Positions 1 to 20,713 of a stretch of 64,000 nt of DNA are shown piece after piece. The position numbers and the translations under genes are program-made. The notes beneath the pieces are model-generated. The model was given only the letters and a program-made list of their open reading frames with translations, ran no database searches and was not told where the DNA came from. The stretch lies in the IMG/VR virus record IMGVR_UViG_2671180747_000017. One strand, 5' to 3'. Origin of the DNA: a virus (lineage: Duplodnaviria > Heunggongvirae > Uroviricota > Caudoviricetes). Every line of letters begins with the position of its first letter. Position 1 is the first letter of the stretch.

Positions 1-105
1 GGTATCCGTGAAGCCGAACAGGATCGCCAGATGAACATACTGACGGGGGCTTCTGCACCGGCAAGACAGAAACTGAGTGTTGGCGGACAACTGGTGGCAG
101 CGTAA
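1..105 (+). CDS. 3' end of a phage gene truncated by the window start
   Basis: Frame-1 open from position 1 to TAA at 103-105; next gene's GGAGG RBS follows immediately. Confidence 0.4.
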   Translation, partial: GIREAEQDRQMNILTGASAPARQKLSVGGQLVAA

Positions 106-114
106 GGAGGAAAT

Positions 115-366
115 ATGGGGTACGGCTTACTGGATATTGCGAATCAGTCACGGCGTGAGGCATTACAGGGAATAAGTGACGCAGACCGACGACGTGAAGA
201 AATTGAGGCTGCGAACAAACAGATGGCGGCGCAACAGAAAGCGCAGAACAAGCAGAATATCGGTACGGGCATTGGTACGGGGGCGGCTATTGGCGCATCC
301 GTTGGTGGTCCTGTTGGTGCTGTTGCTGGAGCAGTAATTGGCGGCATTGCTGGTTCTTTGTTTTAA
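115..366 (+). CDS. Small phage protein with Gly-zipper hydrophobic C-terminal tail (putative membrane/virion-associated)
   Basis: ORF track; GGAGG RBS 8 nt upstream of ATG; C-terminus GTGIGTGAAIGASVGGPVGAVAGAVIGGIAGSLF. Confidence 0.65.
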   Translation: MGYGLLDIANQSRREALQGISDADRRREEIEAANKQMAAQQKAQNKQNIGTGIGTGAAIGASVGGPVGAVAGAVIGGIAGSLF

Positions 367-376
367 GGAGTGGTGA

Positions 377-1642
377 ATGAGCGGATTTGCACAGGGGTTA
401 CTTGCCGGATTCAGCACGGTTGACCAGGCAATGACCCGTCGTAAGGAGCTTGGTCTGCGTGAAGCACAGCTTGCCCGGCAACAGAAAAATAACGAGCGCG
501 ATTTTGAGTTTGCGCAGTCTCAGTTTGAACATAATAAAAACGTTGATCAGCGGAACTTTGATTACAGAGCCAAAGTTGACGACCGTAATTATGCACTGAA
601 GGAAAGGGAGTTTAACGCTAACCAGAATTACCGGAATGCGTCGCTGGGTATGGAGCAGCAGCGACTCCGGATGCAGAAATACAACCAGCGACGGCTTGAG
701 TATAACGATATGCTGGCGCGCGATCAGCCTGTGATGGCGGCGCTTGGAAAGGCTGTGGATGCTGGCGATCGGGATGCAGCAATGCGTCTTTACGGCCAGT
801 TGTCAGAGGGTAATCCGCTGAGGCTGATGGCGAATGATGGCTATGTAGCGAAAGCGGGTCAGGCCGTGAACAACCTGCAAAAAATCTTTGATGACAAGCC
901 AGACAGGGCTATCGCTTCACTTAATACGCCGGAGAATCTTGATGTCCTTTCCGGGGTGTTTGGCCCGGAACTGCAACAGCGTATTGGCATGCCCGATTCA
1001 ACCGGGAAAAAGACGATAAAAGAGGCCAGGATTGGCAGTATAGTACCGGCACAGCAGGAAGGGTACATACTTATCGGCCTTGATCTCACATACAGTGATG
1101 GCTCTACAGCACATAAACCTGTAACAGAATACGGCAGTGCGCACCCTGATGATCAAACCGTGCTGGCGATACCCGTTGATAAGGCTATCGCTCAGGTCAG
1201 GGATCGCAGCAAATTTGCAGAGATATCGAAAAATTATGGTTATTTTATGCCGAAGCAGCAGGGACTTTCTCTGAAAGAGCTTCAGAAGGGGGCCAGCAAC
1301 GTCGCGGCGGACGCGATCAAGAATGGCGGTAATGCACAGGCTGCGGTGGATGAATATTATGCTGCGACTGGTTCACAACCGCATCAACAGAAAATTCAGC
1401 AACAAAAACTTCAGCAACAGGTTATCAACTGGGCGGGAGATGATCCTGATAAGCTGTCATTTGCCAGAAATGTAGCGGCCCGTCAGCCTGAAATGCTGGA
1501 GCCTCAGAATCAGAAATTGCTGGAGAACGGGTATGCGAATTTTCTCCGTATTCAAAAGGCCAGGGGGGAACAGGCCAGAGATGAAAGTGCTTCATCTGCA
1601 TCTCAGTTTATCCGTGGACTGAAACAGAATTACGCCCAGTAA
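377..1642 (+). CDS. Phage protein of unknown function, 421 aa, Gln/Asn/Arg-rich
   Basis: ORF track; AAGGAG RBS upstream; tightly packed after preceding gene; no domain I recognise. Confidence 0.7.
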   Translation: MSGFAQGLLAGFSTVDQAMTRRKELGLREAQLARQQKNNERDFEFAQSQFEHNKNVDQRNFDYRAKVDDRNYALKEREFNANQNYRNASLGMEQQRLRMQKYNQRRLEYNDMLARDQPVMAALGKAVDAGDRDAAMRLYGQLSEGNPLRLMANDGYVAKAGQAVNNLQKIFDDKPDRAIASLNTPENLDVLSGVFGPELQQRIGMPDSTGKKTIKEARIGSIVPAQQEGYILIGLDLTYSDGSTAHKPVTEYGSAHPDDQTVLAIPVDKAIAQVRDRSKFAEISKNYGYFMPKQQGLSLKELQKGASNVAADAIKNGGNAQAAVDEYYAATGSQPHQQKIQQQKLQQQVINWAGDDPDKLSFARNVAARQPEMLEPQNQKLLENGYANFLRIQKARGEQARDESASSASQFIRGLKQNYAQ

Positions 1643-1675
1643 TTCACGATATTCCATTAATACCATTTCCTGATG

Positions 1676-1700
1676 CCCGGCCATTGTGCCGGGTTTTTTT
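1676..1700 (+). terminator. Rho-independent terminator-like hairpin (CCCGGC-loop-GCCGGG then T7)
   Basis: Read directly: 6-bp GC stem, 6-nt loop, 7 consecutive T; lies between the 421-aa gene stop and the giant gene start. Confidence 0.6.
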
Positions 1701-1711
1701 ATGGAGTCTGT

Positions 1712-4700
1712 ATGGCCTATTCAGAGGAACAGCGTCCTGAGGCGCAACTCGGTAACCAGAATCGTAACAGCCTGAACATTCAGCAACCCGGCGAAACTGA
1801 CAGCTATGAAGCATTTTTCTCTGATCCGAATCGCTGGAAGGATAACAGTACGTCGTTCAGCCTGGGCGATGTATTGCCAACAATGGGTAAAGGTTTCGCC
1901 CAGTCCGTCCGGGGAACAGGGGAAATGGCCCGTGGACTCGGTGATGCGATGATTCAGAGCCCGGTAAAAACAGGGGCGCGTATTTTAAATGAGTTCAGCC
2001 GTATGGGGCTGCCGGGTGTCGCAACTGTGCAGGATATTTTTGCCGGTGGCAGCAGGGGGGCTGATGAGGTCATCGATACCCTGCCTGATGGCAAAAACGC
2101 GGTTACTGATACTGTCGGTAAAGGTCTGAAGGCAACCGGTAAGGCTGTCAGTGATGGTGCTGAAGCCACTGATGAATGGCTGACCGGTAAGATGTCGCCG
2201 GGTGCAGTTCGTGCGCTGAATACGCCGATGACCGAAGGCTATGATGATTCTGCGGTCTGGGTGGCGAAGGGTGTAAACCTGATTGGTGCGCTTGTACCTG
2301 ATATGGTTGCTGGCGGTGTGGCTAAAAAGGTGGGTGATGTCACACTGCGAAAAATGCTGACCGCCGGGCTGGAGAAAAAATACATCGCGGCAGGGATGCA
2401 GCCGGAAAGAGCCACGGCACTGGCAGCAGAAGCTGTCGATAAAAAAATGCCGGATTTATTCCAGGCGGGCCTGATCACCCATTCCACAGCCAGTGCACAG
2501 GGGCAGAGTGCAATGGCGGCAGCAGATGCTGTTCTTAATGCGGATTACTCTGAGCTGGCGCAGTCACCGAAATTTCAGCAGACGTTTTTGTCCATTGACG
2601 CCGACCCGCAGCACGCACAGCTTACTGATCGCCAGAAAATGGATCTGGCAAAAGAGCGTGTTGCCGATGAGGTGCGCGCGCAGCTGGCAACCGATCCTGA
2701 ATTGCTGGCTGTGAATGCCATGGCGGCAAAACTGGGTGACGCACAACTGTTTAATCTGGTGACACGAGGCACAGCGAAGACCGTTAAAAGCGGCATTGTC
2801 AGAAATGCCACGGAACAGGGGGCGATTAATGCGGCGCAGGGCGGCTATTCACGCTATCAGGAAAACACGGCATTGCGTGAGACCGCCGGAATGGATGTGT
2901 CACCGTGGGAGGGCGTGGCTGACGCAACGATCGAAGGTGCAGCCTTTGGTGCTGCGATGGGGGCTCCATCCGGTGCGGTTGCCGGATATCGTGGCAGACG
3001 TCAGGCCGCAGAAGAAGCAGCCATGCGTGATGCTGAAACCGTGCAGCAGGACGACGCAGCCCCGCAACCAGAATCTGTTGATCCGGTGGCGCAGCATCGT
3101 GAATCCATGCAGGGGATGAATCGCGAGCAGCTTCTGGAGCAGTATGCTGATGCGGATATGGCAACAGAGGGGGACGCATCCGCAGCTCATCGCCGGGAAG
3201 CTGCCAGCCAGTTGTTGAATGAACTGGACGAACAGGCGAAGCGACAGGCTGTGATGAATGAGCTGAAGGCGAAGCCGCGTTCTGAACTGCTTGAGGAATA
3301 CCGCAGACTCAGCCAGAAAGAGGAGCGCACCGAGACTGAAGAACAACAGTTTCAGGCAATACGAGAAGTCATTCGCCCACAACAGGAAGTGACGCCGGAA
3401 GCACAGTCACAGCCTGAAAATGCGGAGGATGGTAACGGGAGCATTTACCCGACGGTGCGGTTCCGGGACCCGAATGAAGTCCGCATTGAAATTAACGGGA
3501 ATGGTGCGTCCAGACCAGCGGAACGCATTGAAAAGGTGCGCCCGGACAACCGTTATTTCACGGATGAGAAAAGCGCCATGGGGAGTGATGTTTTCCGTAA
3601 TGCCGCCGCCACCGGCCTGAAACCGTCCGTAGTGAAGAAAGGCGAGACTCAATATGCTGTTGAAATGGATAATCCTGCGTTCTCTGAAGATGTGGCAACG
3701 GAAACCATTAACACCCTGGCTGACGGAGAGCGTATTGCTGATGCTGACCCGATGGAGCAGCCCGCGTTCATGCGTGACCCACGATTCCGTGGTTTCACGG
3801 GGGATGATACGGAGGTACAGGCCCGCCTTGCCCGTGGCAACGTGCCGACGGCAGAGGAGCTTGTACGTTCACAGATGGCTGAAGGTGATGCCGGTCCGAC
3901 AGCACAGGAGTTAACTGAGCGTCCACGCCTGCCCGCTCCCGGCGATATTCATCCCGGACAGGGATATCCGTTACCGGGAGAGGTGGCGCGTACGCCGGAT
4001 GAGAATCAGGCAGGACGTGGTGGTCGTTTTACCACAACCGGTGAGGTTAAGGGCCAGAGTTTCCAGAAAGGACAAGCTCTGGCACCGGAAAACGCCGCTG
4101 GTCGCCAGGGGGAAACACTCGAGGGTGAAATGGTTCGTCGTGGTCTGCCGTCACCGGATGCGCAGAACGCGACAGCACCGGTACGTGAAGGGCTACCGGC
4201 TCCGGACATTACACACAATGTCCGTATGCCTCAGCCTGATCAGCTTCCCCGAACTGTTCGTAACTCATTGCCTGAGCTCGCACAGCAGGCAGAAGTACGT
4301 CGACAGGCCGGAGGAAATCGTGACATCCCGCAGCCTGAGACAATCGCACCTGAATCTGAAACAACAGTCGCTACTGACAGGGAAGCTACCGTGCGCGGAG
4401 GTGAAGTCAGGGGCAAAAAAATTGAAGACTTTGGTGAAGAAATTAAGGGCGCGGCAAAACACCGTTATGCACAGCTTGCTGAAACACTGGGTAAAACGCT
4501 GGAAGACAGGGATTATGTCACGCAACCGCTGAGCAAACTGTTCCCGAAACCGGACTACGCAAAACTGGCGAGCGAAGGGGCTGATGCTGACACCCTGGCA
4601 ATGATAGCGCTGTATCGTAGCGATATTCCGGTGAAGACGAAACACAATACGGCAGGCTGGGGGGAGAGCGTAAAAAAAGTACGACACAGTGTATCGGAAA

Positions 4701-7700
4701 TGCTGAACGGAACGGTCAGCGCGAAACGCCTCGCAGAATGGATGGAAGGCAGAATGCCCTCCCGTTACGCGGACACCTGGCAACTGTTACGCACTCTGCC
4801 ACCCTCACAGATGGACAAGGCTTCTGCTTATCGGGTGGTATCGGGTGTGTATCAGGCGGCAGGAGGGAAGCGTTACGATCCGCCACAGAAACTTTATTCA
4901 CTGCGCAATAAGGACAATAAGGGGAGTAACCTCTTTTTCTCGGAAAGCAGGGATGAATTACTGGCAAAGGCGAAAGTCTGGTTTGCAGAGCAGGAGGAAA
5001 AATCACAGGCGAAAGGTGATGAAAAAACAGCACCGTCTCCGGATGACAAAATCCGCTTTGACGTTTACCGGAATACCCGCAGTGGCGATATTTTTATCGC
5101 TTACGGTAAAAACAAAATGCGGGTGAGAGGTGGCTTTAAGTCAGCCAGTGATGCGCGTAAGTACATTGATTTACATCGTGATGAGCTTGTTCGTCATGTG
5201 AAGGAGATGCGGGAGATTTCGCGTGAGGAGCAGCGCAACGCCACCAACCGCGACCGTACCGGACCAGAACGCCGCAAGGGGGATGTTTCACCGGAGCAGT
5301 TCAGTGATGCGTTTGGTTTTCGTGGTGTGCAGTTTGGTAATTATGTGGAAAGTCCGCGTCGTCAGGCTGATTTGAACCGGGCTTATGACTCGCTGCATGA
5401 CCTGGCTGACGTGCTGAATGTACCGACAAAAGCGCTTTCTCTGAACGGTCGTCTTGGGCTTGCTTTTGGTGCCCGTGGTAAGGGTAAGGCGGCGGCACAC
5501 TATGAGTCAGGTGAGGTGGCAATCAACCTGACAAAAGGTAACGGACCGGGTGCGCTGGCGCACGAATGGTTCCATTCTCTGGATAATTATTTTGGTCGTT
5601 ATGACGTTTCCAGTGACGGGAAAATTACGTCAGGTGGCGACTTTATGACGGAAGCACAGCGTGTCAGGCGCATATTTAAAGACGGCAGGTATGTTGATGC
5701 TGAATATCCGGTACGTCAGGAGGTTTACGACGCTTTTAAAGGTGTGATTCAGGCCATTAAAAACAGTGACATGCCGCGTCGTTCAGCGCTTCTTGATGAG
5801 GTGCGCTCAAAACCGTACTGGTCAACGGATGTTGAAATGGCGGCACGTGCCTTTGAGCGTTATGTTCAGGATAAGGCGCGTATGGCTGGCGTGGAGAATG
5901 ATTATCTGGTCAATATCCGTAAGGCACCTGAGCACAACACAGATAACACCTACGCTTATCCGACGAATGCGGAACTGGATGGCGGTATTCGTGAGGCATT
6001 CGATCACCTGTTCCGCACCCTGAAAACCCGTGAGACGGACAAGGGCGTTGCGTTTTATTCCCGTAAGGGCATGACCCGCACACCTGAAGGTAATCTCATT
6101 TCGGATGTTAACCGTAGTGCGGAAGCCAAAGGCAGCCCGGTCCCGCAGGTTGAAGCGGTTGCCCGTGGCGTGATGAGCGGCATTAAGGACAGTGACCTGA
6201 CGGTCCGTGTGGTGAAGTCACAGAAAGAGGCTGAAGCGCTGGCGGGTGAATCGTTCGACGGTTACGGCAGGGTGCACGCATTCTATCGTCCGGATAAACG
6301 AGAAATTGTCCTGGTGGCGGATAACATCCCTGACGGGCAGACCGTACGCGAGAAGTTGCGTCACGAGATTATCCACCATGCCATGGAGCATGTTGTCACG
6401 CCAGCGGAATATCAGACGATTATCAAAACCGTGCTGAAAACCCGCGACAGTGATAACGCCACCATCCGTGAAGCCTGGCGTAAGGTTGATGCGTCCTATG
6501 GTAAGGAATCACCGGAAGTACAGGCGGGTGAATTTCTGGCACATATGGCGGAGAAACAGCCGAATAAATTCGTGGCGGCATGGGAGCGTGTTGTTGCCCT
6601 GGTCAAAGGGGTACTGCGTCGTACGGGGTTACTGAAGCCGACGGAACTGAACGATATCAGACTTGTTCGCGAGACCATCCGTACGTTAGGCCAGCGTGTG
6701 CGGGAAGGTTACACGCCGCGTGAGGATGGCGTGGGCGCATCGTCTCAGTACTCCCGTAGTGGTAAGCCTGATCCGTTCAAAGTGCCGGAAGGTGAGGGTG
6801 AACGTTATCGCGATGACCTTGCCAGAATGATGAAATCTCTGCGTACCACAGATTTAACGGTAAACATCGGGCGTACGCCGCCGGTATTGCGTCACCTTGG
6901 TGCACCGGATTTGCCGCTGGTTATTTCCCGCGATACTGTGCGGAAGGCCACCAATGGTGTGAAACATGTGGTGCCGATGGATGTTATCGAGAGACTACCG
7001 GAACTGATGCACGATCCGGATGCAATTTACCGCTCAGCGACAGAAAGAAATGCGGTTGTGATGCTGCTTGATGCCGTGGATAAAAATGGTGATCCGGTAG
7101 TGTCTGCGGTGCATATGAAGGCAACCCAAAAACTTCTGGAAGTTAACCGTATTGCTTCTGTTTACGGAACGGAAAACGGGAAAAAACTGAAGAGTATGGA
7201 AACGGCTGGCTTAACATTATACAGGAGAGAAAAACTAAACCCTGATGGTTCTCTGTACAGAGGGCTCCAATTGCCCAAAGATGAGCACTCCCGTCAGGGT
7301 TCTGCGGATAAAATACTCTATCCTGAAGATATTCGCAAGGGGCCGTATTACTCCCGTACCAGCAGTCTGACACCGGAAGAGACAATTGCATCGCGTTTTG
7401 TGCGCCAGATGCAGGATAAATTCCAGGTGCTGAAAGCTGTTCAGGAGAATATCCGTAAAACTGGTGGAAAAATAGACGACAGTAACAACGCTTATATGGC
7501 GGAAGAACTCTTCCACGGGAAGGCGGAAAACGACCTGAACGTGATGAAGGAGCGCTACGTTCAGCCACTGGCTAAATTACTGGCGGACTACAAAATTGCG
7601 CAGGCCGATCTGGATGAGTACCTCTACGCCCGTCACGCGCCGGAACGTAACGCGCATATCGCGAAAATCAACCCGAAAATGCCGGACGGCGGTTCGGGGA

Positions 7701-10093
7701 TGACCAACGCGGAGGCGGCGGAAATCATGCAGCGTGTACGTAACAGCGGCAAACAGGCACAGTATGACCGTCTGGCAGGGATTGTTGACGATATGCTGGC
7801 CCGTCGCCGTGAGCTTATCCGTGAGGCAGGACTGGAAGAGAGCGGCGTGGTGGATGCCTGGCAGAAAGCCTACCGTTACTACGTTCCCCTGAAAGGGCAG
7901 GATGTTGACGGTGTGGTGTCACTGCCACGTACAGGCAAGGGATTCACCATCGGCGGGCGTGAAAGTAAGCAGGCCATGGGGCGCGCATCCCGCGCACAGT
8001 CTCCTTCCACTCAGGCGATACAGGATTTGAGCGAATCACTGATCCGCAATCGCAAAAATGAAGTGGGTAACGCCTTCCTGAAACTGGTACAGGATAATCC
8101 CGACAAGGATTACTGGCAGGTATTCACCGATGACAGACCGGATACCATGCGGACGATTGCAGAGCGCAAGGACAAGGAAACTGGTGAAACCATTCGCGAA
8201 GTTGTCGAACGCCCTGTACCGATGGCAATGATGGCAGACCGGTACTTCACCACCAAAAAGAACGGCAAAACGTACTACATCAAACTCCATGATCCGCGCC
8301 TGATGCGTGCGATGAAGAATATGGGACCGGAAACCAGTAACGCCGTAATCCGCACGCTGGGGAAAGTTAACCGCTTCCTGGCAACGGTGAACACGTCGTA
8401 TAACCCGGAATTCCTGGTCAGTAACTTCATCCGTGACGTACAGACGGCGGTGATGAACCTGAAGGCGGAGCAGGGAAGGAGCGACGGCAAACTGAAAGGG
8501 CTGGATAACTTATCCGCACTGGCTGTGGTGAAAGACAGTCGGTCTGCCATGTCTGCCGTATACGCCAGTCTGCGTGGTAAAACCCTCACGGGCAACGGTG
8601 CGCAGTGGCAGAAGGTGTGGAAAGAGTTTGTTGAGGACGGAGGTAAAACCGGCTGGTTTAACATGGGTGACCTTGAAGGCCAGCAGAAGGAAATGGATCG
8701 CCTTGTATCGCTGGCGAAGGGAGGATGGAAAGGCCAGAGTATCGGTGCATGGAATTCGTTCCTTAACCTTGTCGAGGATGCCAACGGGGCGGTTGAAAAC
8801 GCTCTGCGTCTTTCTGCCTATAAACACGCCCGTGATGCCGGTTTGTCACGCCAGCAGGCGGCGTCTCTTGCCAAAAACATGACGGTGAACTTTAACCGTC
8901 GTGGTGAGCAGGGGGCGCTGATGAACTCGCTGTACATGTTCGCCAACGCCAGTATTCAGGGAACGGCAAATCTGGTGAGAACGCTCGGACATCTTAATGG
9001 TGAGGGACCTTTACTGGAGCGCCTTCGCTGGAAGAATCTGAATGTTCCGCAGAAAATCGCGCTTGCCGCTGTGGGAGCGGGTTATCTGCTTGGCTCGCTT
9101 AACCGCAGCGTGGCGGGTGAGGATGATGACGGGGTTAACTGGTATGACAAAGTACCGTCTCATGTGAAAGAGCGTAACCTCGTCATTATGAAATCGGTGT
9201 TCGGGGGCAAGGCCGGAGAGTACTGGAGTATTCCTCTGCCTTACGGGTACAACGTTTTCTTCCTGCTTGGTCACACAGCCGAAGGGGTGGCAGCGGGCGA
9301 CCTGACCGCTTCACGTGCTGCCGGTAATGTTGTTGGTGGTGTGCTTGGGGCATTCAGTCCTGTGGGCAGTGAAACGTCGGAAACACTGTCCGGGGCATTG
9401 CTGAAAAATGCAGCGCCGACCATTCTGCGTCCGTTTGCGAACCTTGCCATGAATGAAAACTTCATGGGGGCGCAGATTTACCAGGAGAACATGCCGTTTG
9501 GTACACCAAAACCTGACAGCCAGCTGGGAAGACGTTCAACGCCAGAAGCGTACAAGGCGTTTGCATCCTGGCTGAATGCGTTCTCAGGTGGCAGCCAGTA
9601 CCGTCCCGGCGCGGTGGATATCACACCGGAATCGCTGAAATTCTGGATTGACTATATCTCCGGAGGGACAGGGCGCTTCATTTCCAAAACCACGGATGCG
9701 GCGGTGAAATCGCTGAATGGTATTGATATACCGGAACAGCAGGTGCCCTTCCTGGGGAAAATTTCGGGGGAGGTGATGCCGTATGCAGACCAGCAGAAGA
9801 TGTACGACCGGATGACAGAGATTGCGCAGTATCACGCAGAGCTGAAGAGTCTGACCGGTGCAGAAAGAACGGCGTTCATTGACGAGAACAACGGAAAATT
9901 GTCGATGAACGGGCTTATGCAGGATACCCGGAAGAGACTGAAGGATTTGCGTAAACAGCGTGATGCCATTTATGCCGACAGTTCTCTCAGTCTGGCGCAG
10001 CAGGCGGCGATAGTGAAATCGGTAGAGCGGGATATGAAGGTTGCCGTGGATCGCTTTAACCGCGAGTACAACAAAAAAGTGGGAGTGGATTAA
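1712..10093 (+). CDS. Giant phage protein (about 2793 aa) with HExxH zincin-like metallopeptidase motif; polyvalent/virion-associated type protein (function inferred)
   Basis: Single uninterrupted 8.4-kb ORF; ATG at 1712 chosen because the track start 1673 lies inside the upstream terminator hairpin; motif GALAHEWFHSLDNYFG; long Ala/Glu/Gln low-complexity stretches. Confidence 0.8.
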   Translation: MAYSEEQRPEAQLGNQNRNSLNIQQPGETDSYEAFFSDPNRWKDNSTSFSLGDVLPTMGKGFAQSVRGTGEMARGLGDAMIQSPVKTGARILNEFSRMGLPGVATVQDIFAGGSRGADEVIDTLPDGKNAVTDTVGKGLKATGKAVSDGAEATDEWLTGKMSPGAVRALNTPMTEGYDDSAVWVAKGVNLIGALVPDMVAGGVAKKVGDVTLRKMLTAGLEKKYIAAGMQPERATALAAEAVDKKMPDLFQAGLITHSTASAQGQSAMAAADAVLNADYSELAQSPKFQQTFLSIDADPQHAQLTDRQKMDLAKERVADEVRAQLATDPELLAVNAMAAKLGDAQLFNLVTRGTAKTVKSGIVRNATEQGAINAAQGGYSRYQENTALRETAGMDVSPWEGVADATIEGAAFGAAMGAPSGAVAGYRGRRQAAEEAAMRDAETVQQDDAAPQPESVDPVAQHRESMQGMNREQLLEQYADADMATEGDASAAHRREAASQLLNELDEQAKRQAVMNELKAKPRSELLEEYRRLSQKEERTETEEQQFQAIREVIRPQQEVTPEAQSQPENAEDGNGSIYPTVRFRDPNEVRIEINGNGASRPAERIEKVRPDNRYFTDEKSAMGSDVFRNAAATGLKPSVVKKGETQYAVEMDNPAFSEDVATETINTLADGERIADADPMEQPAFMRDPRFRGFTGDDTEVQARLARGNVPTAEELVRSQMAEGDAGPTAQELTERPRLPAPGDIHPGQGYPLPGEVARTPDENQAGRGGRFTTTGEVKGQSFQKGQALAPENAAGRQGETLEGEMVRRGLPSPDAQNATAPVREGLPAPDITHNVRMPQPDQLPRTVRNSLPELAQQAEVRRQAGGNRDIPQPETIAPESETTVATDREATVRGGEVRGKKIEDFGEEIKGAAKHRYAQLAETLGKTLEDRDYVTQPLSKLFPKPDYAKLASEGADADTLAMIALYRSDIPVKTKHNTAGWGESVKKVRHSVSEMLNGTVSAKRLAEWMEGRMPSRYADTWQLLRTLPPSQMDKASAYRVVSGVYQAAGGKRYDPPQKLYSLRNKDNKGSNLFFSESRDELLAKAKVWFAEQEEKSQAKGDEKTAPSPDDKIRFDVYRNTRSGDIFIAYGKNKMRVRGGFKSASDARKYIDLHRDELVRHVKEMREISREEQRNATNRDRTGPERRKGDVSPEQFSDAFGFRGVQFGNYVESPRRQADLNRAYDSLHDLADVLNVPTKALSLNGRLGLAFGARGKGKAAAHYESGEVAINLTKGNGPGALAHEWFHSLDNYFGRYDVSSDGKITSGGDFMTEAQRVRRIFKDGRYVDAEYPVRQEVYDAFKGVIQAIKNSDMPRRSALLDEVRSKPYWSTDVEMAARAFERYVQDKARMAGVENDYLVNIRKAPEHNTDNTYAYPTNAELDGGIREAFDHLFRTLKTRETDKGVAFYSRKGMTRTPEGNLISDVNRSAEAKGSPVPQVEAVARGVMSGIKDSDLTVRVVKSQKEAEALAGESFDGYGRVHAFYRPDKREIVLVADNIPDGQTVREKLRHEIIHHAMEHVVTPAEYQTIIKTVLKTRDSDNATIREAWRKVDASYGKESPEVQAGEFLAHMAEKQPNKFVAAWERVVALVKGVLRRTGLLKPTELNDIRLVRETIRTLGQRVREGYTPREDGVGASSQYSRSGKPDPFKVPEGEGERYRDDLARMMKSLRTTDLTVNIGRTPPVLRHLGAPDLPLVISRDTVRKATNGVKHVVPMDVIERLPELMHDPDAIYRSATERNAVVMLLDAVDKNGDPVVSAVHMKATQKLLEVNRIASVYGTENGKKLKSMETAGLTLYRREKLNPDGSLYRGLQLPKDEHSRQGSADKILYPEDIRKGPYYSRTSSLTPEETIASRFVRQMQDKFQVLKAVQENIRKTGGKIDDSNNAYMAEELFHGKAENDLNVMKERYVQPLAKLLADYKIAQADLDEYLYARHAPERNAHIAKINPKMPDGGSGMTNAEAAEIMQRVRNSGKQAQYDRLAGIVDDMLARRRELIREAGLEESGVVDAWQKAYRYYVPLKGQDVDGVVSLPRTGKGFTIGGRESKQAMGRASRAQSPSTQAIQDLSESLIRNRKNEVGNAFLKLVQDNPDKDYWQVFTDDRPDTMRTIAERKDKETGETIREVVERPVPMAMMADRYFTTKKNGKTYYIKLHDPRLMRAMKNMGPETSNAVIRTLGKVNRFLATVNTSYNPEFLVSNFIRDVQTAVMNLKAEQGRSDGKLKGLDNLSALAVVKDSRSAMSAVYASLRGKTLTGNGAQWQKVWKEFVEDGGKTGWFNMGDLEGQQKEMDRLVSLAKGGWKGQSIGAWNSFLNLVEDANGAVENALRLSAYKHARDAGLSRQQAASLAKNMTVNFNRRGEQGALMNSLYMFANASIQGTANLVRTLGHLNGEGPLLERLRWKNLNVPQKIALAAVGAGYLLGSLNRSVAGEDDDGVNWYDKVPSHVKERNLVIMKSVFGGKAGEYWSIPLPYGYNVFFLLGHTAEGVAAGDLTASRAAGNVVGGVLGAFSPVGSETSETLSGALLKNAAPTILRPFANLAMNENFMGAQIYQENMPFGTPKPDSQLGRRSTPEAYKAFASWLNAFSGGSQYRPGAVDITPESLKFWIDYISGGTGRFISKTTDAAVKSLNGIDIPEQQVPFLGKISGEVMPYADQQKMYDRMTEIAQYHAELKSLTGAERTAFIDENNGKLSMNGLMQDTRKRLKDLRKQRDAIYADSSLSLAQQAAIVKSVERDMKVAVDRFNREYNKKVGVD

Positions 10094-10101
10094 CAGAAAT
10101 G

Positions 10102-10123
10102 GCCCCGTACGGAAGTGCGGGGC
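10102..10123. terminator. Stable hairpin after giant gene at convergent gene junction, no U-tract
   Basis: GCCCCGTAC-GGAA-GTGCGGGGC 9-bp stem read directly, 9 nt after stop codon. Confidence 0.3.
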
Positions 10124-10216
10124 TGATTAAGGAATAAACACACATTAACCTGTAATAACCGGAGCTATTAACATATAGTCAGAAAGAGTATTTCATGTGA
10201 GACAGAGAGCCGATTT

Positions 10217-10408
10217 ATGTTTAATGAAGAAAAAGTTGCGCAAATGGCAGCGTATTTGCTGAAAAAGCATGGCGGATCTATGCGTTTCATTAAGCTGATG
10301 AAGCTGATGTATCTCTCTGACCGCAAAGCAATGGAGTCTTTAACCGGGAAGGGGAGAGGTTTGAATGCTCCCCCACAATTCCCCGGCATCAAATCTCCAT
10401 GCAGGTGA
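10217..10408 (+). pseudogene. Possible N-terminal remnant of a Panacea (DUF4065)-like gene
   Basis: 63-aa ORF with KLMKLMYLSDRKAMESLTGK pattern recalled from Panacea-domain N-termini; ends abruptly; sits alone between convergent operons. Confidence 0.25.
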
Positions 10409-10494
10409 ACTATTTTACCCCCAGCGGCAAATCGCAAAAACAATCAGTGCGATCGAAATGGCAGCCACTACAATTGCAAATGCTTCAGGCTAGG

Positions 10495-11421
10495 TCATTG
10501 GCTTACCTCCTTCGGCGGTTCTGGTAGCGGCATCCAGTGGGTTACTTCTTTGAGATGCAGGTCTTCGCCATCACCGTCATCCCAAGTGGGATTGCCATCA
10601 TTAAACCAGTCGCCATATACGCCGACCTGAGTGTTGGGGATGCTTGGTGGGTAGTTGTTTTTAAAGTCAGCTGCTAACACATAGTATTGTCGCTCTCCCA
10701 TTTCTGGCATTCGATCACTACAGCTTATCCAACCATCCGGAGTTACCGGAACTGGCGGAACGGCTGTTTGCTCTCGAACGTCATTAGTCGCTATCGGTTC
10801 TGCTGCCAACTGACTGGCATATTTGTTAATGGTAACGATAAGCTCTTGCTCAGCCTCATCCAGACAATCACCGATACCTCGCCTGTCACCGTCAAAATCA
10901 TCGAAATCGGCACGAATCTTGGCAACCTTCTGGATTGCGGACAACACCTCACTAGGAATTACCGGATAGTTGGTTGACGTTTCCGCGATTTCCCGAAAAT
11001 TATTGGTTGACGAATTCTTGTTTTCCCGAAAGTTTCCGGACTGAAGCATGGCGGCGCGGCAGGCATTCCAGCCTCTTACCTCTGCAATAGCGGCAACCGC
11101 ATCAACCGCGTACATGCTAAGAGGATTAGGCATTGGTTTTTCTTCCGGTACTACTGGTGCTGGAGGGGCGGCGTAAATGCCCTCTATCACTAAATGTTTG
11201 CGCTCAAAATCATCTGGCTCTCGATGATATACGTAACTCCAATCACCAAGGTTATCATTGCGCCTGCAACGGAAACCTATCGGCTCGGCTTCCAGCGCTG
11301 CCAGAGCAATTCGTGCCAGTTCTTCCGCTTCTTCTGCTGGCAGTACAACGTTGCTACCAGGTCCGTATGTTTCGCGCCACTGCTTGATTGTCAGTAGTCG
11401 CTCTTTGGTAATAGTGATCAT
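10495..11421 (-). CDS. DUF551-like prophage protein
   Basis: ORF track; C-terminal YYVLA...GVYGDWFNDG...THWMPLPEPP resembles the DUF551 module common in lambdoid early-left regions. Confidence 0.65.
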   Translation of the reverse strand: MITITKERLLTIKQWRETYGPGSNVVLPAEEAEELARIALAALEAEPIGFRCRRNDNLGDWSYVYHREPDDFERKHLVIEGIYAAPPAPVVPEEKPMPNPLSMYAVDAVAAIAEVRGWNACRAAMLQSGNFRENKNSSTNNFREIAETSTNYPVIPSEVLSAIQKVAKIRADFDDFDGDRRGIGDCLDEAEQELIVTINKYASQLAAEPIATNDVREQTAVPPVPVTPDGWISCSDRMPEMGERQYYVLAADFKNNYPPSIPNTQVGVYGDWFNDGNPTWDDGDGEDLHLKEVTHWMPLPEPPKEVSQ

Positions 11422-11933
11422 GCCGCGTTTCCTTCTTTCTTATTAACAATTACACCGTCATATATTTCATTAAGGTGCCCTCTCAACTCCATGCGCCTTA
11501 ATGCAGATAACATGTAATCGCATTCAACCTGCTTATTCCCAATAAAAGGTTTATCTTCAGGGTTACCCCAACAGCAATTCCCCTTGGGCCATCCATGTAC
11601 TTTCCGTACTCTTCCGTTAACAACGTGAAGTAATCCCCAGCCAGGTGGTAAATCCTCAATTGAAATAATTCCCGGCTCACTAATAAAGAATCGCCAGTCG
11701 CCCATTCCAAGAGACGGATTTTTACGAAAACGCTTTTTTCTATCTGCCAACAAGTCAGCACGAGAACATTTCGCCTCTATCAGGCATGATGCTGAATTTC
11801 TGAATCCCATAGCATCTGGCTGTTCTCCGGTACTGGTTACAGCTATAAAGCGGTCATGAAAACAAACCTTGAACCCGTTGCGCTTAAGGAACTTGTACGC
11901 AATCTGACAGAGTTCGCGGTGTGTTAACGCCAT
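11418..11933 (-). CDS. Hypothetical prophage protein, possible PD-(D/E)xK-like nuclease motif
   Basis: ATG at 11933 with AAGGAG RBS overlapping the upstream gene's stop; motif CLIEAKCSRADL. Confidence 0.55.
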   Translation of the reverse strand: MALTHRELCQIAYKFLKRNGFKVCFHDRFIAVTSTGEQPDAMGFRNSASCLIEAKCSRADLLADRKKRFRKNPSLGMGDWRFFISEPGIISIEDLPPGWGLLHVVNGRVRKVHGWPKGNCCWGNPEDKPFIGNKQVECDYMLSALRRMELRGHLNEIYDGVIVNKKEGNAA

Positions 11934-11934
11934 A

Positions 11935-12885
11935 TCACTCTCCTTTGATGCGAATGCCAGCAAGCCAGTTTCTTATGCCGATATATTCAGCGTTCCGGAA
12001 ACCGCTTTTTACATATATAAATGGCAAGCGAAGATTGTGACCATTGACTGCCAGGTAGTCTTTACAACCCTGTTCGGTGAAACAGCAGGTAACGAATTCA
12101 TCAATATCTTTCACAGCAACGCGCCGCCATTTTTCTGGTGGCTCTCGAAAGTTTTCATGAAGTAGCTCGAGACGACGACTATGGCGTTTATTGGCTTCAT
12201 TGCCATCTTCGTCAACCCAGACAATCCGGTCATGGTCATAATCAGCATCAACAACGATTTCGCGCTTTTGATACACACAAAACATGGGATCTGACGTTAT
12301 TCGATTGTCCTGTGTTCGAATATTTTCACCGATGATGCCAAACGAATCTGGTGCAGATTTTGTCTGCATCTCTTCGATACGTTCAGCCATCGCAGCACAC
12401 TCTTCAAAGTTGCTTAATGCTTTTCGCTCCCATTCGGCGCATTGTTTTTCCAGTTCTGCTATGCGCTTACTTCCATCCGCGATTACTCCCTCGTAATATT
12501 CACGCTGCTCGTTGAGTTTTGATTTTGCTGTTTCAAGCTCAACGCGCAGCTTCCCTACCGTAAGCGCAATATCCTCGTTCTCCTGGTCGCGGCGTTTGAT
12601 GTATTGCTGGTTTCTTTCCCGTTCATCCAGCAGTGCCAGCACGGTAGCCGGATTGGCTGCGGCGATGAATTCAGCATTGGCCTGCTGTTCCATTTGGAAA
12701 TCTTCATCGAAACCGCTTTCAGGATGTGCTCCTTCAATTCTGCAAATGGGAATATATCCAGCAGCCTCGCGATGAATTAGTGCATCATCACCATCAAATC
12801 GGTTCTCTCCATATTCGAGCGACCACTCACCACGCGTTGCTTTTTCTGCCTTTTCACGCAGTACCTGATAGTTAATCTCGCTCAT
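11935..12885 (-). CDS. Ead/Ea22-like prophage protein
   Basis: Contains ANAEFIAAANPATVLALLDE, which I recognise from Ea22-like proteins; central coiled-coil; start refined to ATG 12885. Confidence 0.7.
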   Translation of the reverse strand: MSEINYQVLREKAEKATRGEWSLEYGENRFDGDDALIHREAAGYIPICRIEGAHPESGFDEDFQMEQQANAEFIAAANPATVLALLDERERNQQYIKRRDQENEDIALTVGKLRVELETAKSKLNEQREYYEGVIADGSKRIAELEKQCAEWERKALSNFEECAAMAERIEEMQTKSAPDSFGIIGENIRTQDNRITSDPMFCVYQKREIVVDADYDHDRIVWVDEDGNEANKRHSRRLELLHENFREPPEKWRRVAVKDIDEFVTCCFTEQGCKDYLAVNGHNLRLPFIYVKSGFRNAEYIGIRNWLAGIRIKGE

Positions 12886-17595: not shown

Positions 17596-18622
17596 TTATA
17601 TTTTTTCGATCTCGACCAGATTAGTGTGCTGCGGGTTTCCCTTCGCCAGTGGTGAAGGGCGCAGAGTGGTTAGCGTATTCACACAGCCGCCATGGTCGAT
17701 TTTATCGCCAGACATATTGGCCTCGTGCCAGGCTCCCTGGCCCATAGCGCTAACTCCAGGGAGAATACGTGGTGTTACTTTGGCTGGTAGCCGAACTTCG
17801 CCACGATGGTTAAACACCCGCACCATATCGCCGTTGGCAATCCCACGTTTCTGCGCATCTATAGGGTTGATCCACACCTCCTGACGGCAGGCAGCCTTCA
17901 GGAGATCAATATTGCCGTAGGTCGAGTGAGTACGGGATTTGTAATGGAAACCAAACAGTTGCAGTGGGAAGGTTCTACGTTCAGGGGAGTCCCAGCCTTC
18001 AAAGGTAGAGGCATAAACTGGCAGTGGGCTTATCACTTCATCTTTTTCCAGTTCCCAGGTACGGGCAATTTCCGCCAGCTTGCTGGAATAAATTTCAATC
18101 TTACCGGAAGGTGTTTTAAGTGGATTTGCCTCGGGGTCGTCACGAAATGCTTTGTAGGCGACAAAATGACCATTGGGATCTTTACGCTTATAGATACCCA
18201 TTTTTTTCAGTTCGTCGTAAGACGGTAACGCCGGATCTTTGGCAAGCATTTTGGCGTACAGATGTTGTAACCATTGTTCCTGCGTGCGACCTTCAGTGAA
18301 CTTTTGATAGACGTCAGGTCCAAGACGTTTCGCGACTTCACTCAGGATCCAGTAAATCGGTTTGCGTTCGAATTTTTCGCTGGTGACAGGCTGGAGGAAA
18401 ATGAGATATCCCATGTTACCGGCGTAGTCGTTAGGAATAATATCTTCCTGCTCAACGGTCATCAGGTCTGGCAGCAGAATGTCGGCATATTTTGCCGATG
18501 AGGTCATAAAGTTTTCGATGACCACAATCATTTCGCATTTCGATTCGTCCTGCAGAATTTCATGCGTTTTGTTGATGTCAGAATGCTGATTAACGAGGGT
18601 ATTTCCCGCGTAGTTCCAGATG
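17596..18622 (-). pseudogene. ynfE: ynfE C-terminal fragment (distal part of the disrupted gene)
   Basis: Paralogous to ynfF C-terminal half; the ynfE-derived reading frame begins at the junction (...SIWNYAGNTL) and the track ORF N-terminus is island-derived. Confidence 0.85.
18612..18622. repeat. attL core direct repeat AGTTCCAGATG
   Basis: Identical 11-mer at both ynfE breakpoints. Confidence 0.8.
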
Positions 18623-18687
18623 GACTCCATTGTCAGACGGATGGATGGACTTGAAGTAGTTGACTCAATGCTACTTAAGGTCCTGAT

Positions 18688-20271
18688 ATGACTGACATTA
18701 ACCATGATAATACTGTATATCCATCCAGTTCTTTCTCTGGGTCTCCCTATCTGTATCAGCAAGTCTGCACCTCAAGTCCTGACACAAGGCTGACACAAAT
18801 CAATCTACTCAGCGTAGCTAAGCCTCAGTTAGTCCGTAGAGCCAATGGTCGATATACTATCCGCTTCAGACTCAAGGGACAGACCATCCCGTTTCTTTCA
18901 GTATCGACCCGAAGCACAGACAGGAGAGTAGCCACAATGCGTCAGAGAGAGCTTGCAGCCACAGCTAAGTCCTTCATGTTGGATAGGCCTGATGTCTCGC
19001 TACAGGAGCTTACGGACCACCTCCGGTCTATGGCTGAGCAGTTCCTGACAGACGCCAGTGATGACTACTGGAATGGACTTGAGGTCGCTACTCTGGTGGA
19101 CGAGAAGTCCAACCTGAAGGAGCTAGCCGCTACGCAAGCCTTGAGTCTGGACCAGCAGAAGGGCATAAGGTTAGCGCTTGAAGTCCTGACCGCAGCACAG
19201 CAGAGGGTAGACACTGGTGATGCCTCTGGTCTGATTAAGCTGATTGATGATAATAACCATACTGATTACTCAACTATAGGCGACTCTACGTCAATTCTGA
19301 AGAATGAGCAGGGGGATAGACCAGCAGTTTTCACACAGGAGCGTCAGCCATCTGTGGTTTTTTCAAGCCTAGTGTCCTCGCTGCTGGCTGAGAAGGTCCA
19401 GACCCTGAAGTCCTCCAGCTACAAGGACCTGTCGTCCTCACTGAATACCGTCTCTCGGTTCTTACCTGAAGACATGGACCTGATGTCCCGCTCTGAGTGG
19501 CTGGCTGTCAGGGACTCCATGCTGGCTGCTGAGGTGAGACCATCGACAATCAACAAGCTGCTGACTAAGGCGAAGATGTGTCTTGATTATGGCCTGATGA
19601 ATGGGCAACTTGAGGGCCGCAACCCTATTGAACGGATGAAGCTGACCAAGGATATCGACTCCAAGCGCAGAGCGTTCACAGACGAGGAGCTGGAGAGACT
19701 TCTGGTCCGTGTTGAGTCTGAGTATCAGTTCACACGACACACGGCTCACACGACCTCTGAGGCCCGTAGATGGGCGTCTCTGGTGTCTGTGGTCACTGGC
19801 GCGAGGTCTGCTGAAGTCTGCCACCTGACTAAACGTGACATTGTCACCTTAGACAACGGTTTAACCTGCATCGACATCAATGAAGATGGGGACGGTAAGT
19901 CTGTGAAGAACAAACATTCAGTCCGACTTGTACCGCTGACCGATGGGGCCTGTGGGTTCGACCTGAAGTCCTTCCTTGAATGGGTAGACACGCAGCCTGA
20001 CGACGGCGGTCCTCTCTTCGGGATGACTCCGAGCGCCTACTCTAGCTGGTTTAACTCTAGGGTCCTGACTGAGGCACTGGGAGACGCTGAGAACGTTTCT
20101 CTCCATAGTCTGAGGCATTGGCTGGCGACCCGAATGAAAGAGCGTGGAGTCAATCTGGTGGACGCTCAGGGCATCTTAGGCCATAGCAGTCAGTCAATTA
20201 CGTATGACCTGTACGGGAAAGGACACGCTGTTGGTAGGCTGGCTGAGGTGCTGAAGACAGCTTTACTTTAA
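18688..20271 (+). CDS. int: Tyrosine recombinase / integrase of the island
   Basis: C-terminal HSLRHWLATR and LGHSSQSITYDLYGKGH (H-x-x-R and catalytic Tyr); N-terminal GRYTIRFRLKG arm-binding-like segment; true start uncertain because arm-type repeats lie at 18780-18798. Confidence 0.85.
   Translation: MTDINHDNTVYPSSSFSGSPYLYQQVCTSSPDTRLTQINLLSVAKPQLVRRANGRYTIRFRLKGQTIPFLSVSTRSTDRRVATMRQRELAATAKSFMLDRPDVSLQELTDHLRSMAEQFLTDASDDYWNGLEVATLVDEKSNLKELAATQALSLDQQKGIRLALEVLTAAQQRVDTGDASGLIKLIDDNNHTDYSTIGDSTSILKNEQGDRPAVFTQERQPSVVFSSLVSSLLAEKVQTLKSSSYKDLSSSLNTVSRFLPEDMDLMSRSEWLAVRDSMLAAEVRPSTINKLLTKAKMCLDYGLMNGQLEGRNPIERMKLTKDIDSKRRAFTDEELERLLVRVESEYQFTRHTAHTTSEARRWASLVSVVTGARSAEVCHLTKRDIVTLDNGLTCIDINEDGDGKSVKNKHSVRLVPLTDGACGFDLKSFLEWVDTQPDDGGPLFGMTPSAYSSWFNSRVLTEALGDAENVSLHSLRHWLATRMKERGVNLVDAQGILGHSSQSITYDLYGKGHAVGRLAEVLKTALL
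18780..18798. repeat. Two direct TGACACAA arm-type repeats, 11-bp spacing, left end of island
   Basis: TGACACAAGGCTGACACAA read directly; same motif triplicated at the right end. Confidence 0.7.
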
Positions 20272-20348
20272 GTAGGAAGACCCAAGGTGGAGACCATATA
20301 CGGCTTGATGGTTGAGACCTTGGGTCACTGAAGTCTGACTGAAGTTAG

Positions 20349-20690: not shown

Positions 20691-20713
20691 CTGTATGCAT
20701 CACCAGTGATGGA

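What the first reader, a model, noticed from the sequence alone, without database searches (positions are those of the whole stretch)
1712..10093. Giant 2793-aa prophage ORF with a zincin-like HExxH motif
This is an 8.4-kb uninterrupted reading frame, far larger than typical lambdoid structural genes. It contains HEWFH in a context resembling zincin-like metallopeptidase or ArdC-type modules, plus several long low-complexity linkers, which is the make-up of multi-domain polyvalent proteins delivered with phage or plasmid DNA. It is preceded by a Gly-zipper small protein and a 421-aa protein, possibly an ejection-protein set. Such proteins often carry anti-defence or effector domains.
Basis: partly seen in the sequence, partly recalled or inferred. 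Interest (0 to 1): 0.6.

Follow-up and report, generated by a model that had tools for sequence, protein, structure and literature searches.

The report
Giant virion-packaged polyvalent Stx-phage protein
This 8.4-kb gene is real and intact, but it is the already catalogued giant "polyvalent" protein of short-tailed Shiga-toxin-type phages, which is carried inside the virus particle and is probably injected into the cell with the DNA.

Summary
The ORF is confirmed at 1712..10093 (+), 2793 aa. It is 100% identical in several complete STEC genomes and present in 427 of 5426 complete E. coli genomes. It is the conserved last gene of the virion operon of 933W/phi24B-type podoviruses; the window is 99.7% identical to Shigella phage 75/02 Stx. 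RefSeq calls it an "LPD5/LPD38 domain-containing protein", and a 2026 preprint found the phi24B ortholog (gp47) abundant in virions. HEWFH belongs to a conserved CLCA_X-type zincin core (HExxHxxxD) flanked by LPD5 and LPD1. Additions from this work: a second invariant zincin-like motif (HEIIH…E1607); a MuF_C/PBECR predicted RNase domain that is the allelic hot spot among E. coli copies; and a ~900-aa C-terminal module shared with Vibrio, Ralstonia, Burkholderia and Bacillus podoviruses, with a confident predicted fold (pLDDT 88.6) that matches no solved structure. The 83-aa Gly-zipper and 421-aa upstream genes form a syntenic, virion-associated cassette with it. No ArdC, DarB-type, lysozyme or tail-fibre domains were found. 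Most likely it is a capsid-packaged, ejected carrier protein whose built-in peptidases release effector domains; activity and ejection are untested. Already known; moderate-to-low interest.

The parts
115..366 (+). 83-aa Gly-zipper protein, first gene of the three-gene cassette (annotated 'bacteriocin' in RefSeq)
   Evidence: Weak Pfam Gly-zipper_YMGG hit, below the gathering score. Hydrophobic Gly-zipper segment at aa 57-75. 42% identical homolog (E=1.7e-11) at the syntenic position in Vibrio phage D62. The phi24B ortholog gp49 was weakly detected in virions.
377..1642 (+). 421-aa protein, second gene of the cassette
   Evidence: PHROG 601, function unknown. Homolog (E=3e-14) immediately upstream of the giant ORF in Vibrio phage D62. 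The phi24B ortholog gp48 was flagged structural, 1634 spectral counts. In Burkholderia phage JC1, the 510-aa protein gp68 at the same position is virion-associated, but no sequence homology was tested.
1675..1694 (+). Terminator-like hairpin (7 pairs, 6 G-C, T-run) between the 421-aa gene and the giant ORF
   Evidence: It overlaps the alternative ATG at 1673. Its function was not tested.
1712..10093 (+). Giant ORF, 2793 aa: polyvalent virion protein (ortholog of phi24B gp47 and 75/02 Stx gp68)
2192..2935 (+). N-terminal conserved block (aa 161-408), containing the only marginal hydrophobic segment (aa 181-199)
   Evidence: Shared at about 29% identity with the Vibrio phage giant proteins and with Photobacterium P0213. 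Hydropathy.
3062..4411 (+). Acidic, Pro/Gln/Glu-rich low-complexity linker (aa 451-900)
   Evidence: Composition. No family hits. Confined to the Stx-phage lineage and relatively variable.
4862..5311 (+). LPD5 domain (aa 1051-1200)
   Evidence: Pfam PF18799, 152 bits. Well-predicted alpha/beta domain in model 2. Travels together with the HEWFH core and LPD1 in the relatives.
5255..6031 (+). Zincin module 1 (aa 1182-1440): CLCA_X-like core with HEWFHSLD (nt 5561-5584), plus Pfam LPD1 (aa 1361-1440)
6119..6706 (+). Zincin-like module 2 (aa 1470-1665) with HEIIH (nt 6362-6376) and E1607
   Evidence: H1551 94%, E1552, H1555 and E1607 100% conserved. Predicted three strands, then HExxH helix, then Glu helix. 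Retained next to the C-terminal module in Salmonella, Vibrio and Photobacterium relatives and in P0190. Nearly invariant among E. coli copies.
6959..7222 (+). MuF_C / PBECR domain (aa 1750-1837), a predicted BECR-fold RNase; the allelic hot spot
   Evidence: Pfam PF18819, 63.9 bits. Iyer et al. define it as PBECR. At least three alleles (100%, 85% and 76% identity over aa 1690-1900) with invariant flanks.
7349..10090 (+). Conserved C-terminal module (aa 1880-2793), including Pfam LPD38 (aa 2476-2681; nt 9137-9754)

Best explanation
The ORF encodes the giant polyvalent virion protein of 933W/phi24B-type (Sepvirinae) short-tailed phages. It is made late, as the last gene of the structural operon. 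It is packaged in multiple copies inside the T=9 capsid together with the products of the two small upstream genes, and it leaves the capsid through the portal and tail with, or just ahead of, the DNA. The protein is built as a carrier plus cargo. The C-terminal ~900-aa module, usually with the adjacent HEIIH zincin-like module, is the constant part shared by podoviruses of many hosts; I infer that it handles packaging and/or passage across the envelope. The variable part in this lineage comprises the LPD5-CLCA_X zincin-LPD1 unit, the MuF_C/PBECR predicted RNase and a long acidic linker; I infer these are effector cargo acting on host or competitor targets early in infection. The built-in metallopeptidases most likely cut the polypeptide, or host proteins, after delivery. 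Shown: gene identity, domain content, conservation pattern, synteny, and virion presence of the ortholog (from the literature). Inferred: ejection, self-processing, peptidase and RNase activity, and the role of the C-terminal module.
Confidence: 0.6

Rival explanations
1. Pure ejectosome reading, as proposed in the phi24B preprint: the protein's main job is to form or extend a trans-periplasmic conduit, like T7 gp15/gp16 or P22 gp7/gp20/gp16, and its metallopeptidase digests peptidoglycan. Under this reading the enzymatic domains are not effectors.
For: Podovirus tails are too short to span the envelope. The small, medium and giant gene order mirrors the T7 gp14/15/16 and PhiXacm4-11 gp33/34/35 sets. 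All three products are in virions and gp47 is absent from the external map. The C-terminal module is conserved across podoviruses.
Against: No lysozyme, transglycosylase or peptidoglycan-peptidase family or fold was detected. The zincin matches are protein-cleaving or regulatory peptidases (IrrE, Wss1, SprT, MtfA, lethal factor). The preprint calls MuF-C a metallopeptidase, whereas Iyer et al. define it as a BECR-fold predicted RNase. Swapping of ART, InPase and methyltransferase cargo in relatives and the MuF_C allelic mosaic are hard to explain for a pure conduit. The giant protein has no strong membrane segment. The two readings are not exclusive: the C-terminal module could form a conduit while the rest is cargo.
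Confidence: 0.25
2. DarB-type anti-restriction protein: it is packaged with the DNA and protects it in cis from host restriction, as in phage P1 and as annotated for the Bcep22 and Ralstonia homologs.
For: PHROG 10089 'DarB-like antirestriction' matches aa 2351-2681 (E=3.8e-26). Ralstonia RPZH3 and Burkholderia JC1 homologs carry this annotation and are virion proteins.
Against: The similarity is confined to the C-terminal module. No helicase or methyltransferase domain, which would define DarB-like function, is present here. The annotation of the relatives is itself by similarity, not by test.
Confidence: 0.08
3. External structural protein (tail fibre or tape measure) or a non-virion lysogenic-conversion or toxin gene.
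For: [quoted passage not shown] It is next to lom, bor and 'bacteriocin'-annotated morons.
Against: The lineage is short-tailed and has no tape measure. gp47 is absent from the complete cryo-EM model although abundant in virions. No fibre or tape-measure families were found. The domain content is enzymatic. The gene lies in the late operon.
Confidence: 0.02

Closest known systems
phi24B gp47 / 933W-family giant ORF / Shigella phage 75/02 Stx gp68 (YP_009226900, 'LPD5 domain-containing protein')
   Same: Orthologs: same length class, 95-100% identity, same operon position, same Pfam domains. gp47 is shown to be virion-associated.
   Different: Nothing substantive. This copy carries one of at least three MuF_C alleles. 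The preprint annotates 2811 aa from an upstream start and labels MuF-C a metallopeptidase.
Polyvalent proteins of phages and conjugative elements (Iyer, Burroughs, Anand, de Souza, Aravind 2017, PMC5512222)
   Same: Multiple unrelated domains in one polypeptide; zincin metallopeptidase as hub; MuF-C/PBECR; LPD5, LPD1 and LPD38; encoded among virion genes. LPD38 is noted there as phage-only.
   Different: That survey left LPD1, LPD5 and LPD38 functionally open. Here LPD1 appears as the C-terminal part of a CLCA_X-type zincin unit, and LPD38 as only about 200 aa of a ~900-aa conserved module.
CLCA_X zincin-like family (Lenart et al. 2013, PMC3650047)
   Same: HExxHxxxD active-site consensus, phage and plasmid distribution, frequent occurrence in very long proteins. 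NCBIfam CLCA_X aligns over 3-245 of 250 positions at E=5.9e-44.
   Different: The score (150 bits) is below NCBIfam's whole-protein cut-off (260). Here it is an internal domain flanked by LPD5. No member has been tested biochemically.
Bcep22 gp75 / JC1 gp69 / Ralstonia GP4-like 'DarB-like antirestriction' giant virion proteins
   Same: Same virion lineage: portal, capsid and head-closure proteins are homologous to 933W. Giant last gene of the structural operon, virion-associated, homologous C-terminal ~900-aa module.
   Different: The N-terminal and middle cargo is unrelated (LPD3 and others). Those proteins are 3100-4600 aa. The Stx version has zincin and PBECR cargo instead.
Phage N4 virion RNA polymerase gp50
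   Same: Works like it in outline: a ~3500-aa protein packaged in a T=9 podovirus capsid and injected with the DNA. N4-like vRNAPs are fused to zincin metallopeptidases.
   Different: No RNA polymerase domain here and no sequence or fold match. This is an analogy, not membership.
T7 gp14/gp15/gp16 and P22 gp7/gp20/gp16 ejection proteins
   Same: A set of small, medium and large internal proteins encoded together and packaged in the capsid of a short-tailed phage.
   Different: No sequence or fold similarity was detected, and there is no transglycosylase domain. The giant protein is 2-4 times larger and carries enzymatic cargo.

Membership tests
Polyvalent proteins (Iyer et al. 2017) | Several unrelated globular domains, including family-specific LPD domains, in one polypeptide | tested here: met
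   LPD5 152 bits, LPD1 83 bits, MuF_C 64 bits and LPD38 165 bits, all above Pfam gathering scores.
Polyvalent proteins (Iyer et al. 2017) | Phage-type context: encoded among virion/late genes | tested here: met
   Last gene of the structural operon in 75/02 Stx and in four distant relatives.
Polyvalent proteins (Iyer et al. 2017) | Delivered into the recipient cell with the DNA | not testable with these tools
   Only virion presence of the ortholog is documented, from the literature. Ejection itself has not been shown.
Zincin-like metallopeptidase, CLCA_X type (module 1, HEWFH) | HExxHxxxD active-site motif, evolutionarily conserved | tested here: met
   HEWFHSLD at aa 1284-1291. H, E, H and D are 100% conserved in 53 relatives drawn from different 50%-identity clusters. 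Consensus from PMC3650047.
Zincin-like metallopeptidase, CLCA_X type (module 1, HEWFH) | Match to the curated family model (NCBIfam NF041907) | tested here: inconclusive
   E=5.9e-44 over model positions 3-245 of 250, but 150 bits against a whole-protein cut-off of 260. Best described as a CLCA_X-like domain.
Zincin-like metallopeptidase, CLCA_X type (module 1, HEWFH) | Zincin fold (beta-sheet, then HExxH helix, then a helix carrying an acidic ligand) | tested here: met
Zincin-like metallopeptidase, CLCA_X type (module 1, HEWFH) | Zinc binding and peptidase activity | not testable with these tools
   No biochemical data exist for any CLCA_X member.
Zincin-like metallopeptidase (module 2, HEIIH) | Conserved HExxH plus a downstream Glu ligand | tested here: met
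   H1551 94%; E1552, H1555 and E1607 100%. H, E, H, E and A are invariant in the 21-sequence alignment.
Zincin-like metallopeptidase (module 2, HEIIH) | Match to a described zincin family or a solved zincin structure | tested here: inconclusive
   Only faint Pfam hits: Peptidase_M76 in 3 of 21 members, MATCAP, M48 and DUF2268 once each. No PDB sequence match. Predicted topology fits, but pLDDT is about 57-75. hhalign found no link to module 1.
MuF_C / PBECR (BECR-fold predicted RNase) | Match to Pfam PF18819 above the gathering score | tested here: met
   63.9 bits against 27.6; 69 bits on the isolated segment.
MuF_C / PBECR (BECR-fold predicted RNase) | [quoted passage not shown] | tested here: inconclusive
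   A His ('VKHVV', H1752) and 'YGTE' are invariant across the alleles, but I did not map them onto the family's catalytic columns.
ArdC-type anti-restriction module | ArdC-N ssDNA-binding domain | tested here: not met
   No ArdC hit in Pfam, even at E up to 1 on segments. Iyer et al. note ArdC-N is rare in phage-type proteins.
DarB-like anti-restriction proteins | Helicase and DNA methyltransferase domains | tested here: not met
   None detected. Similarity to 'DarB-like' phage proteins is confined to the C-terminal module.
T7 gp16-type ejectosome protein | Lytic transglycosylase domain and homology to the gp16 fold | tested here: not met
Tail fibre / tape-measure protein | Fibre or tape-measure domains; external or tail-lumen location | tested here: not met
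   No such families in the giant ORF. The ortholog is absent from the resolved virion exterior.

The most novel reading that the evidence does not exclude
The C-terminal ~900-aa module (aa 1880-2793, of which Pfam LPD38 covers only about 200 aa) may be a previously unrecognised, structurally novel delivery chassis. It would be common to the giant internal proteins of 933W/GP4/Bcep22-type T=9 podoviruses of Proteobacteria and Firmicutes, and possibly of a predicted archaeal virus. On this reading it is the part that binds the portal/core during packaging and threads, or forms, the channel across the envelope. The lineage can then bolt almost any enzymatic cargo onto it (zincins, RNase, ADP-ribosyltransferase, pyrophosphatase, methyltransferase, helicase). 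The adjacent HEIIH zincin would be the dedicated release protease.
Probability: 0.3. Interest if true: 0.65.

Novelty: already known. Interest (0 to 1): 0.3.

Why it matters
Stx phages spread Shiga toxin genes. About 8% of complete E. coli genomes carry this gene, which takes up about 14% of the phage genome, yet nobody has shown what it does. If it is an injected carrier of peptidase and RNase effectors, it would be the first thing the phage does to a new host. It could therefore influence host range, superinfection and lysogenic conversion of new pathotypes. The conserved C-terminal module, which has a confident predicted fold with no solved counterpart, is a concrete target for structural and genetic work on how short-tailed phages deliver megadalton amounts of protein. 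None of this is new as a class: the family, its domains and its virion location are already published.

Tried and rejected
1. The full-length homolog search returned only copies at least 95% identical and was useless for diversity. I switched to profile queries built from distant relatives.

2. Sequence searches against PDB found nothing usable, whether with the protein, the two-zincin profile or the HEIIH profile.

4. Foldseek on the middle model was not significant.

5. A 'cargo-less' standalone C-terminal module was rejected. P0179 lies in a rearranged prophage remnant, and the region upstream of P0217 has sparse gene calls, so both look like fragments.

6. Paralogy of the two zincin modules: hhalign returned only the trivial self-match.

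7. PADLOC gave no hits. This is not informative, because that library covers defence systems, not anti-defence.

8. The cross-domain (archaeal) reach of the module was downgraded, because MetMV's Methanosarcina host is only an in-silico prediction for a metagenome-assembled genome.

9. The portal-MuF_C-C-terminal-module fusion (P0158) comes from a short assembly contig and was not verified.

This limited the depth of the alignment over the HEIIH module.

Full report
**1. The observation**

An open frame runs from 1673 to 10093 on the + strand. The alternative ATG at 1673 sits inside a strong terminator-like hairpin at 1675-1694 (6 G-C pairs plus a T-run), so 1712 is the more credible start. 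A stop-free frame of this length has a chance probability of about 1e-58 (my arithmetic). HEWFH is at aa 1284. For this composition only 0.036 HExxH motifs are expected by chance, and there are two; the second is HEIIH at aa 1551. The stretch aa 451-900 is an acidic, Pro/Gln/Glu-rich linker with net charge -25. The 83-aa Gly-zipper ORF (115..366) and the 421-aa ORF (377..1642) are present as described.

**2. What the locus is**

Window 1-12000 is 99.7% identical to Shigella phage 75/02 Stx and 97% identical to POCJ13, VT2-Sakai and many other Stx-converting phages; 186 phage records cover at least 80% of it. These are Sepvirinae, the 933W/phi24B-type short-tailed phages. In the RefSeq annotation the ORF is gp68, 'LPD5 domain-containing protein'. 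It is the last gene of the late operon, after the terminase, portal, major head, tail-fibre, lom and small genes. The same 8.4 kb occurs in 427 of 5426 complete E. coli genomes, up to three copies per genome, and is 100% identical and uninterrupted in several human STEC isolates. A PHROG profile of exactly 2793 positions matches it end to end. One 90%-identity protein cluster alone has 4186 members. So the gene is real, intact, common and already catalogued. In this window the prophage ends at about 15,017 inside ynfG, and a second, lambda-like siphovirus prophage occupies the far end.

**3. Domain anatomy**

- **Pfam hits above gathering scores:** LPD5 (aa 1051-1200), LPD1 (1361-1440), MuF_C (1750-1837) and LPD38 (2476-2681).
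- **HEWFH module.** HEWFH lies between LPD5 and LPD1, inside a match to NCBIfam CLCA_X (aa 1182-1437, E=5.9e-44, model positions 3-245 of 250, but below the whole-protein cut-off). CLCA_X was defined by Lenart et al. 2013 as a phage- and plasmid-borne zincin-like family with the consensus HExxHxxxD. The window has HEWFHSLD. An exhaustive search with aa 1180-1680 found 5911 clusters at 50% identity, nearly all inside proteins of 2000-5700 aa. In 53 divergent relatives, H1263, E1265, H1284, E1285, H1288, D1291, E1375, R1379 and E1382 are 100% conserved.
- **HEIIH module.** The second motif is also conserved: H1551 94%, E1552, H1555 and E1607 100%.
- **Strength of each call.** The zincin assignment is good for module 1. 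For module 2 it is plausible but weaker: Pfam hints are only faint and hhalign finds no link between the two modules.
- **MuF_C.** According to Iyer et al. 2017, MuF_C is a BECR-fold predicted RNase (PBECR), not a peptidase.
- **Absent domains.** No ArdC, helicase, methyltransferase, lysozyme, fibre or tape-measure domain was detected.

**4. The conserved C-terminal module**

tblastn of aa 1880-2793 finds near full-length homologs in about 100 Vibrio phages (42% identity), Ralstonia GP4-like and Burkholderia Bcep22-like phages (27%, annotated 'DarB-like antirestriction protein'), Bacillus megaterium podoviruses (first ~540 aa) and the metagenome-assembled Methanosarcina virus MetMV (28% over 91% of the query). 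In all four loci examined the giant ORF (1679-3114 aa) is the last gene of the structural operon, and the homology lies at its C-terminus, or in its C-terminal half in Page.

**5. Carrier and cargo**

- The Stx protein shares only three parts with the Vibrio proteins: aa 161-408, the HEIIH module and the C-terminal module.
- Salmonella ~1600-aa versions match aa ~1450-2790 at 70-75%, i.e. HEIIH, MuF_C and the C-terminal module, with an unrelated N-terminus.
- Ralstonia RPZH3 and MetMV carry similar 'L-x-HE-x-x-H-S-G' motifs 130 and 588 aa upstream of the module. Vibrio D62 and Bacillus Page have none.
- The N-terminal 1040 aa are otherwise confined to Stx phages and diverge to 86% identity among them, whereas all Stx-lineage copies of the C-terminal module are at least 95% identical.
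- Among 120 close orthologs, the MuF_C region (aa 1700-1870) is the polymorphism hot spot, with at least three alleles (100%, 85% and 76% identity over aa 1690-1900) between invariant flanks. The HEIIH and C-terminal modules are almost invariant.

This pattern fits a constant delivery part with exchangeable, fast-evolving effector parts.

**6. The upstream genes**

The 83-aa and 421-aa proteins have homologs at syntenic positions in Vibrio phage D62 (E=1.7e-11 and 3e-14). In the phi24B supplement, gp48 (421 aa) is a flagged structural protein (1634 counts, with the authors' guess 'Transcription factor?'). gp49 (86 aa, 'E. coli bacteriocin') gives a weak signal that the authors dismissed as a contaminant on the basis of its annotation. 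In JC1 the 510-aa protein just upstream of the giant gene is also virion-associated.

**7. Published evidence on location**

The phi24B preprint (bioRxiv 10.64898/2026.04.10.717836) found gp47 abundant in purified virions but absent from the cryo-EM model, and proposed that it is an encapsidated ejection protein. In its supplement gp47 has 10,962 spectral counts, against 17,998 for the capsid protein. In the whole-virion digest it has about 1.9 times the per-residue signal of the portal, which crudely suggests on the order of 10-25 copies per virion (my estimate). Counts are highest in the first four listed gel slices but extend through slices in which the 80-kDa portal peaks and beyond. That is compatible with full-length protein plus large fragments, but it does not prove processing.

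**8. Mechanism and rivals**

Best explanation (confidence about 0.6): a capsid-packaged, ejected carrier protein. The C-terminal module, with the N-terminal block and the two small partner proteins, would serve packaging and envelope passage. The zincin modules would cleave the polypeptide or host proteins. The LPD5-CLCA_X-LPD1 unit and the PBECR RNase would be early effectors.

- The pure-conduit reading with a peptidoglycan-degrading peptidase is weakened by the absence of any muralytic fold, by the cargo swapping in relatives, and by the mislabelling of MuF-C. It can still coexist with the carrier reading.
- A DarB-type role is not supported, because the defining helicase and methylase domains are missing.
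- Tail-fibre, tape-measure and non-virion readings are contradicted.
- All activities, and ejection itself, remain untested.

**9. Novelty and score**

The class (Iyer et al. 2017), the zincin family (Lenart et al. 2013), the gene's annotation and its virion location (2026 preprint) are all published, so the finding as stated is already known. The points added here are modest:
- the second conserved HExxH motif;
- LPD1 as part of a CLCA_X-type zincin unit;
- the extent, breadth and structural novelty of the C-terminal module;
- the syntenic three-gene cassette;
- the MuF_C allelic mosaic.

Interest 0.3. The most novel reading still open is that the C-terminal module is a new kind of cargo-delivery chassis for T=9 podoviruses (probability about 0.3).

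Noticed in passing
window 1675-1694 (+): A strong intrinsic-terminator-like hairpin (GCCCGGC...GCCGGGT plus a T-run) sits in the 70-nt gap between the 421-aa gene and the giant ORF, overlapping the alternative ATG at 1673. It could insulate the giant gene from read-through unless transcription is Q-antiterminated.
   Followed up: partly
window ~6780-7320 (aa 1690-1870 of the giant ORF): Among E. coli orthologs at least 95% identical overall, the MuF_C/PBECR segment exists as at least three alleles (100%, ~85% and ~76% identical to this copy). The flanks and the N-terminal 'VKHVV' helix are invariant. This is a localized recombination or diversifying hot spot.
   Followed up: partly
window 115-366: The 83-aa Gly-zipper gene is annotated 'bacteriocin' in RefSeq, and for that reason was dismissed as a contaminant in the phi24B virion proteome. 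It is conserved at the syntenic position in Vibrio phage D62, so it is more likely a virion or ejection partner.
   Followed up: partly
phi24B preprint (bioRxiv 10.64898/2026.04.10.717836) versus window aa 1750-1837: The preprint describes a 'Muf-C metallopeptidase domain' that might degrade peptidoglycan. Iyer et al. define MuF-C as a BECR-fold predicted RNase. The HExxH motifs lie elsewhere (aa 1284 and 1551), and no muralytic domain was found.
   Followed up: yes
window ~15017; 17596-26668; 32029 to the end of the window: The Stx-type prophage abuts ynfF after only about 85 nt of ynfG, so it is inserted in ynfG. A separate small island (527-aa integrase, KilA-N protein and others) splits ynfE. 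A second, lambda/mEp460-like siphovirus prophage starts near rspB (integrase 32029-33324) and runs to the end of the window.
   Followed up: partly
L003 5584-14592 (Methanosarcina virus MetMV, MK170447): A 3002-aa ORF of a virus predicted to infect an archaeon carries the same C-terminal module (28% identity over 91% of the 914-aa query) and an HELTH motif. The host assignment is only in silico for a metagenome-assembled genome, so it could equally be a bacterial phage.
   Followed up: partly
P0158 (1594 aa, from a 9-kb assembly contig): A P22-type portal N-terminal domain is fused to MuF_C plus the C-terminal module. This fits the PBECR-MuF-portal fusions noted by Iyer et al. and hints at a portal association, but it may be an assembly or gene-calling artefact.
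   Followed up: no
L002 3076-3867 (Vibrio phage D62): An HNH endonuclease gene on the opposite strand is inserted inside the three-gene cassette, between the small Gly-zipper gene and the 467-aa gene. The D62 giant protein keeps the HEIIH-module homology but has lost the HExxH motif.
   Followed up: no
window 5312-5341 (aa 1201-1210, FGFRGVQFGN): An almost invariant F-G-F-R-G-V-x-F-G-N motif lies just upstream of the CLCA_X core, at the LPD5/zincin junction, in all 53 divergent relatives. It is more conserved than most of the peptidase itself and has no assigned role.
   Followed up: no
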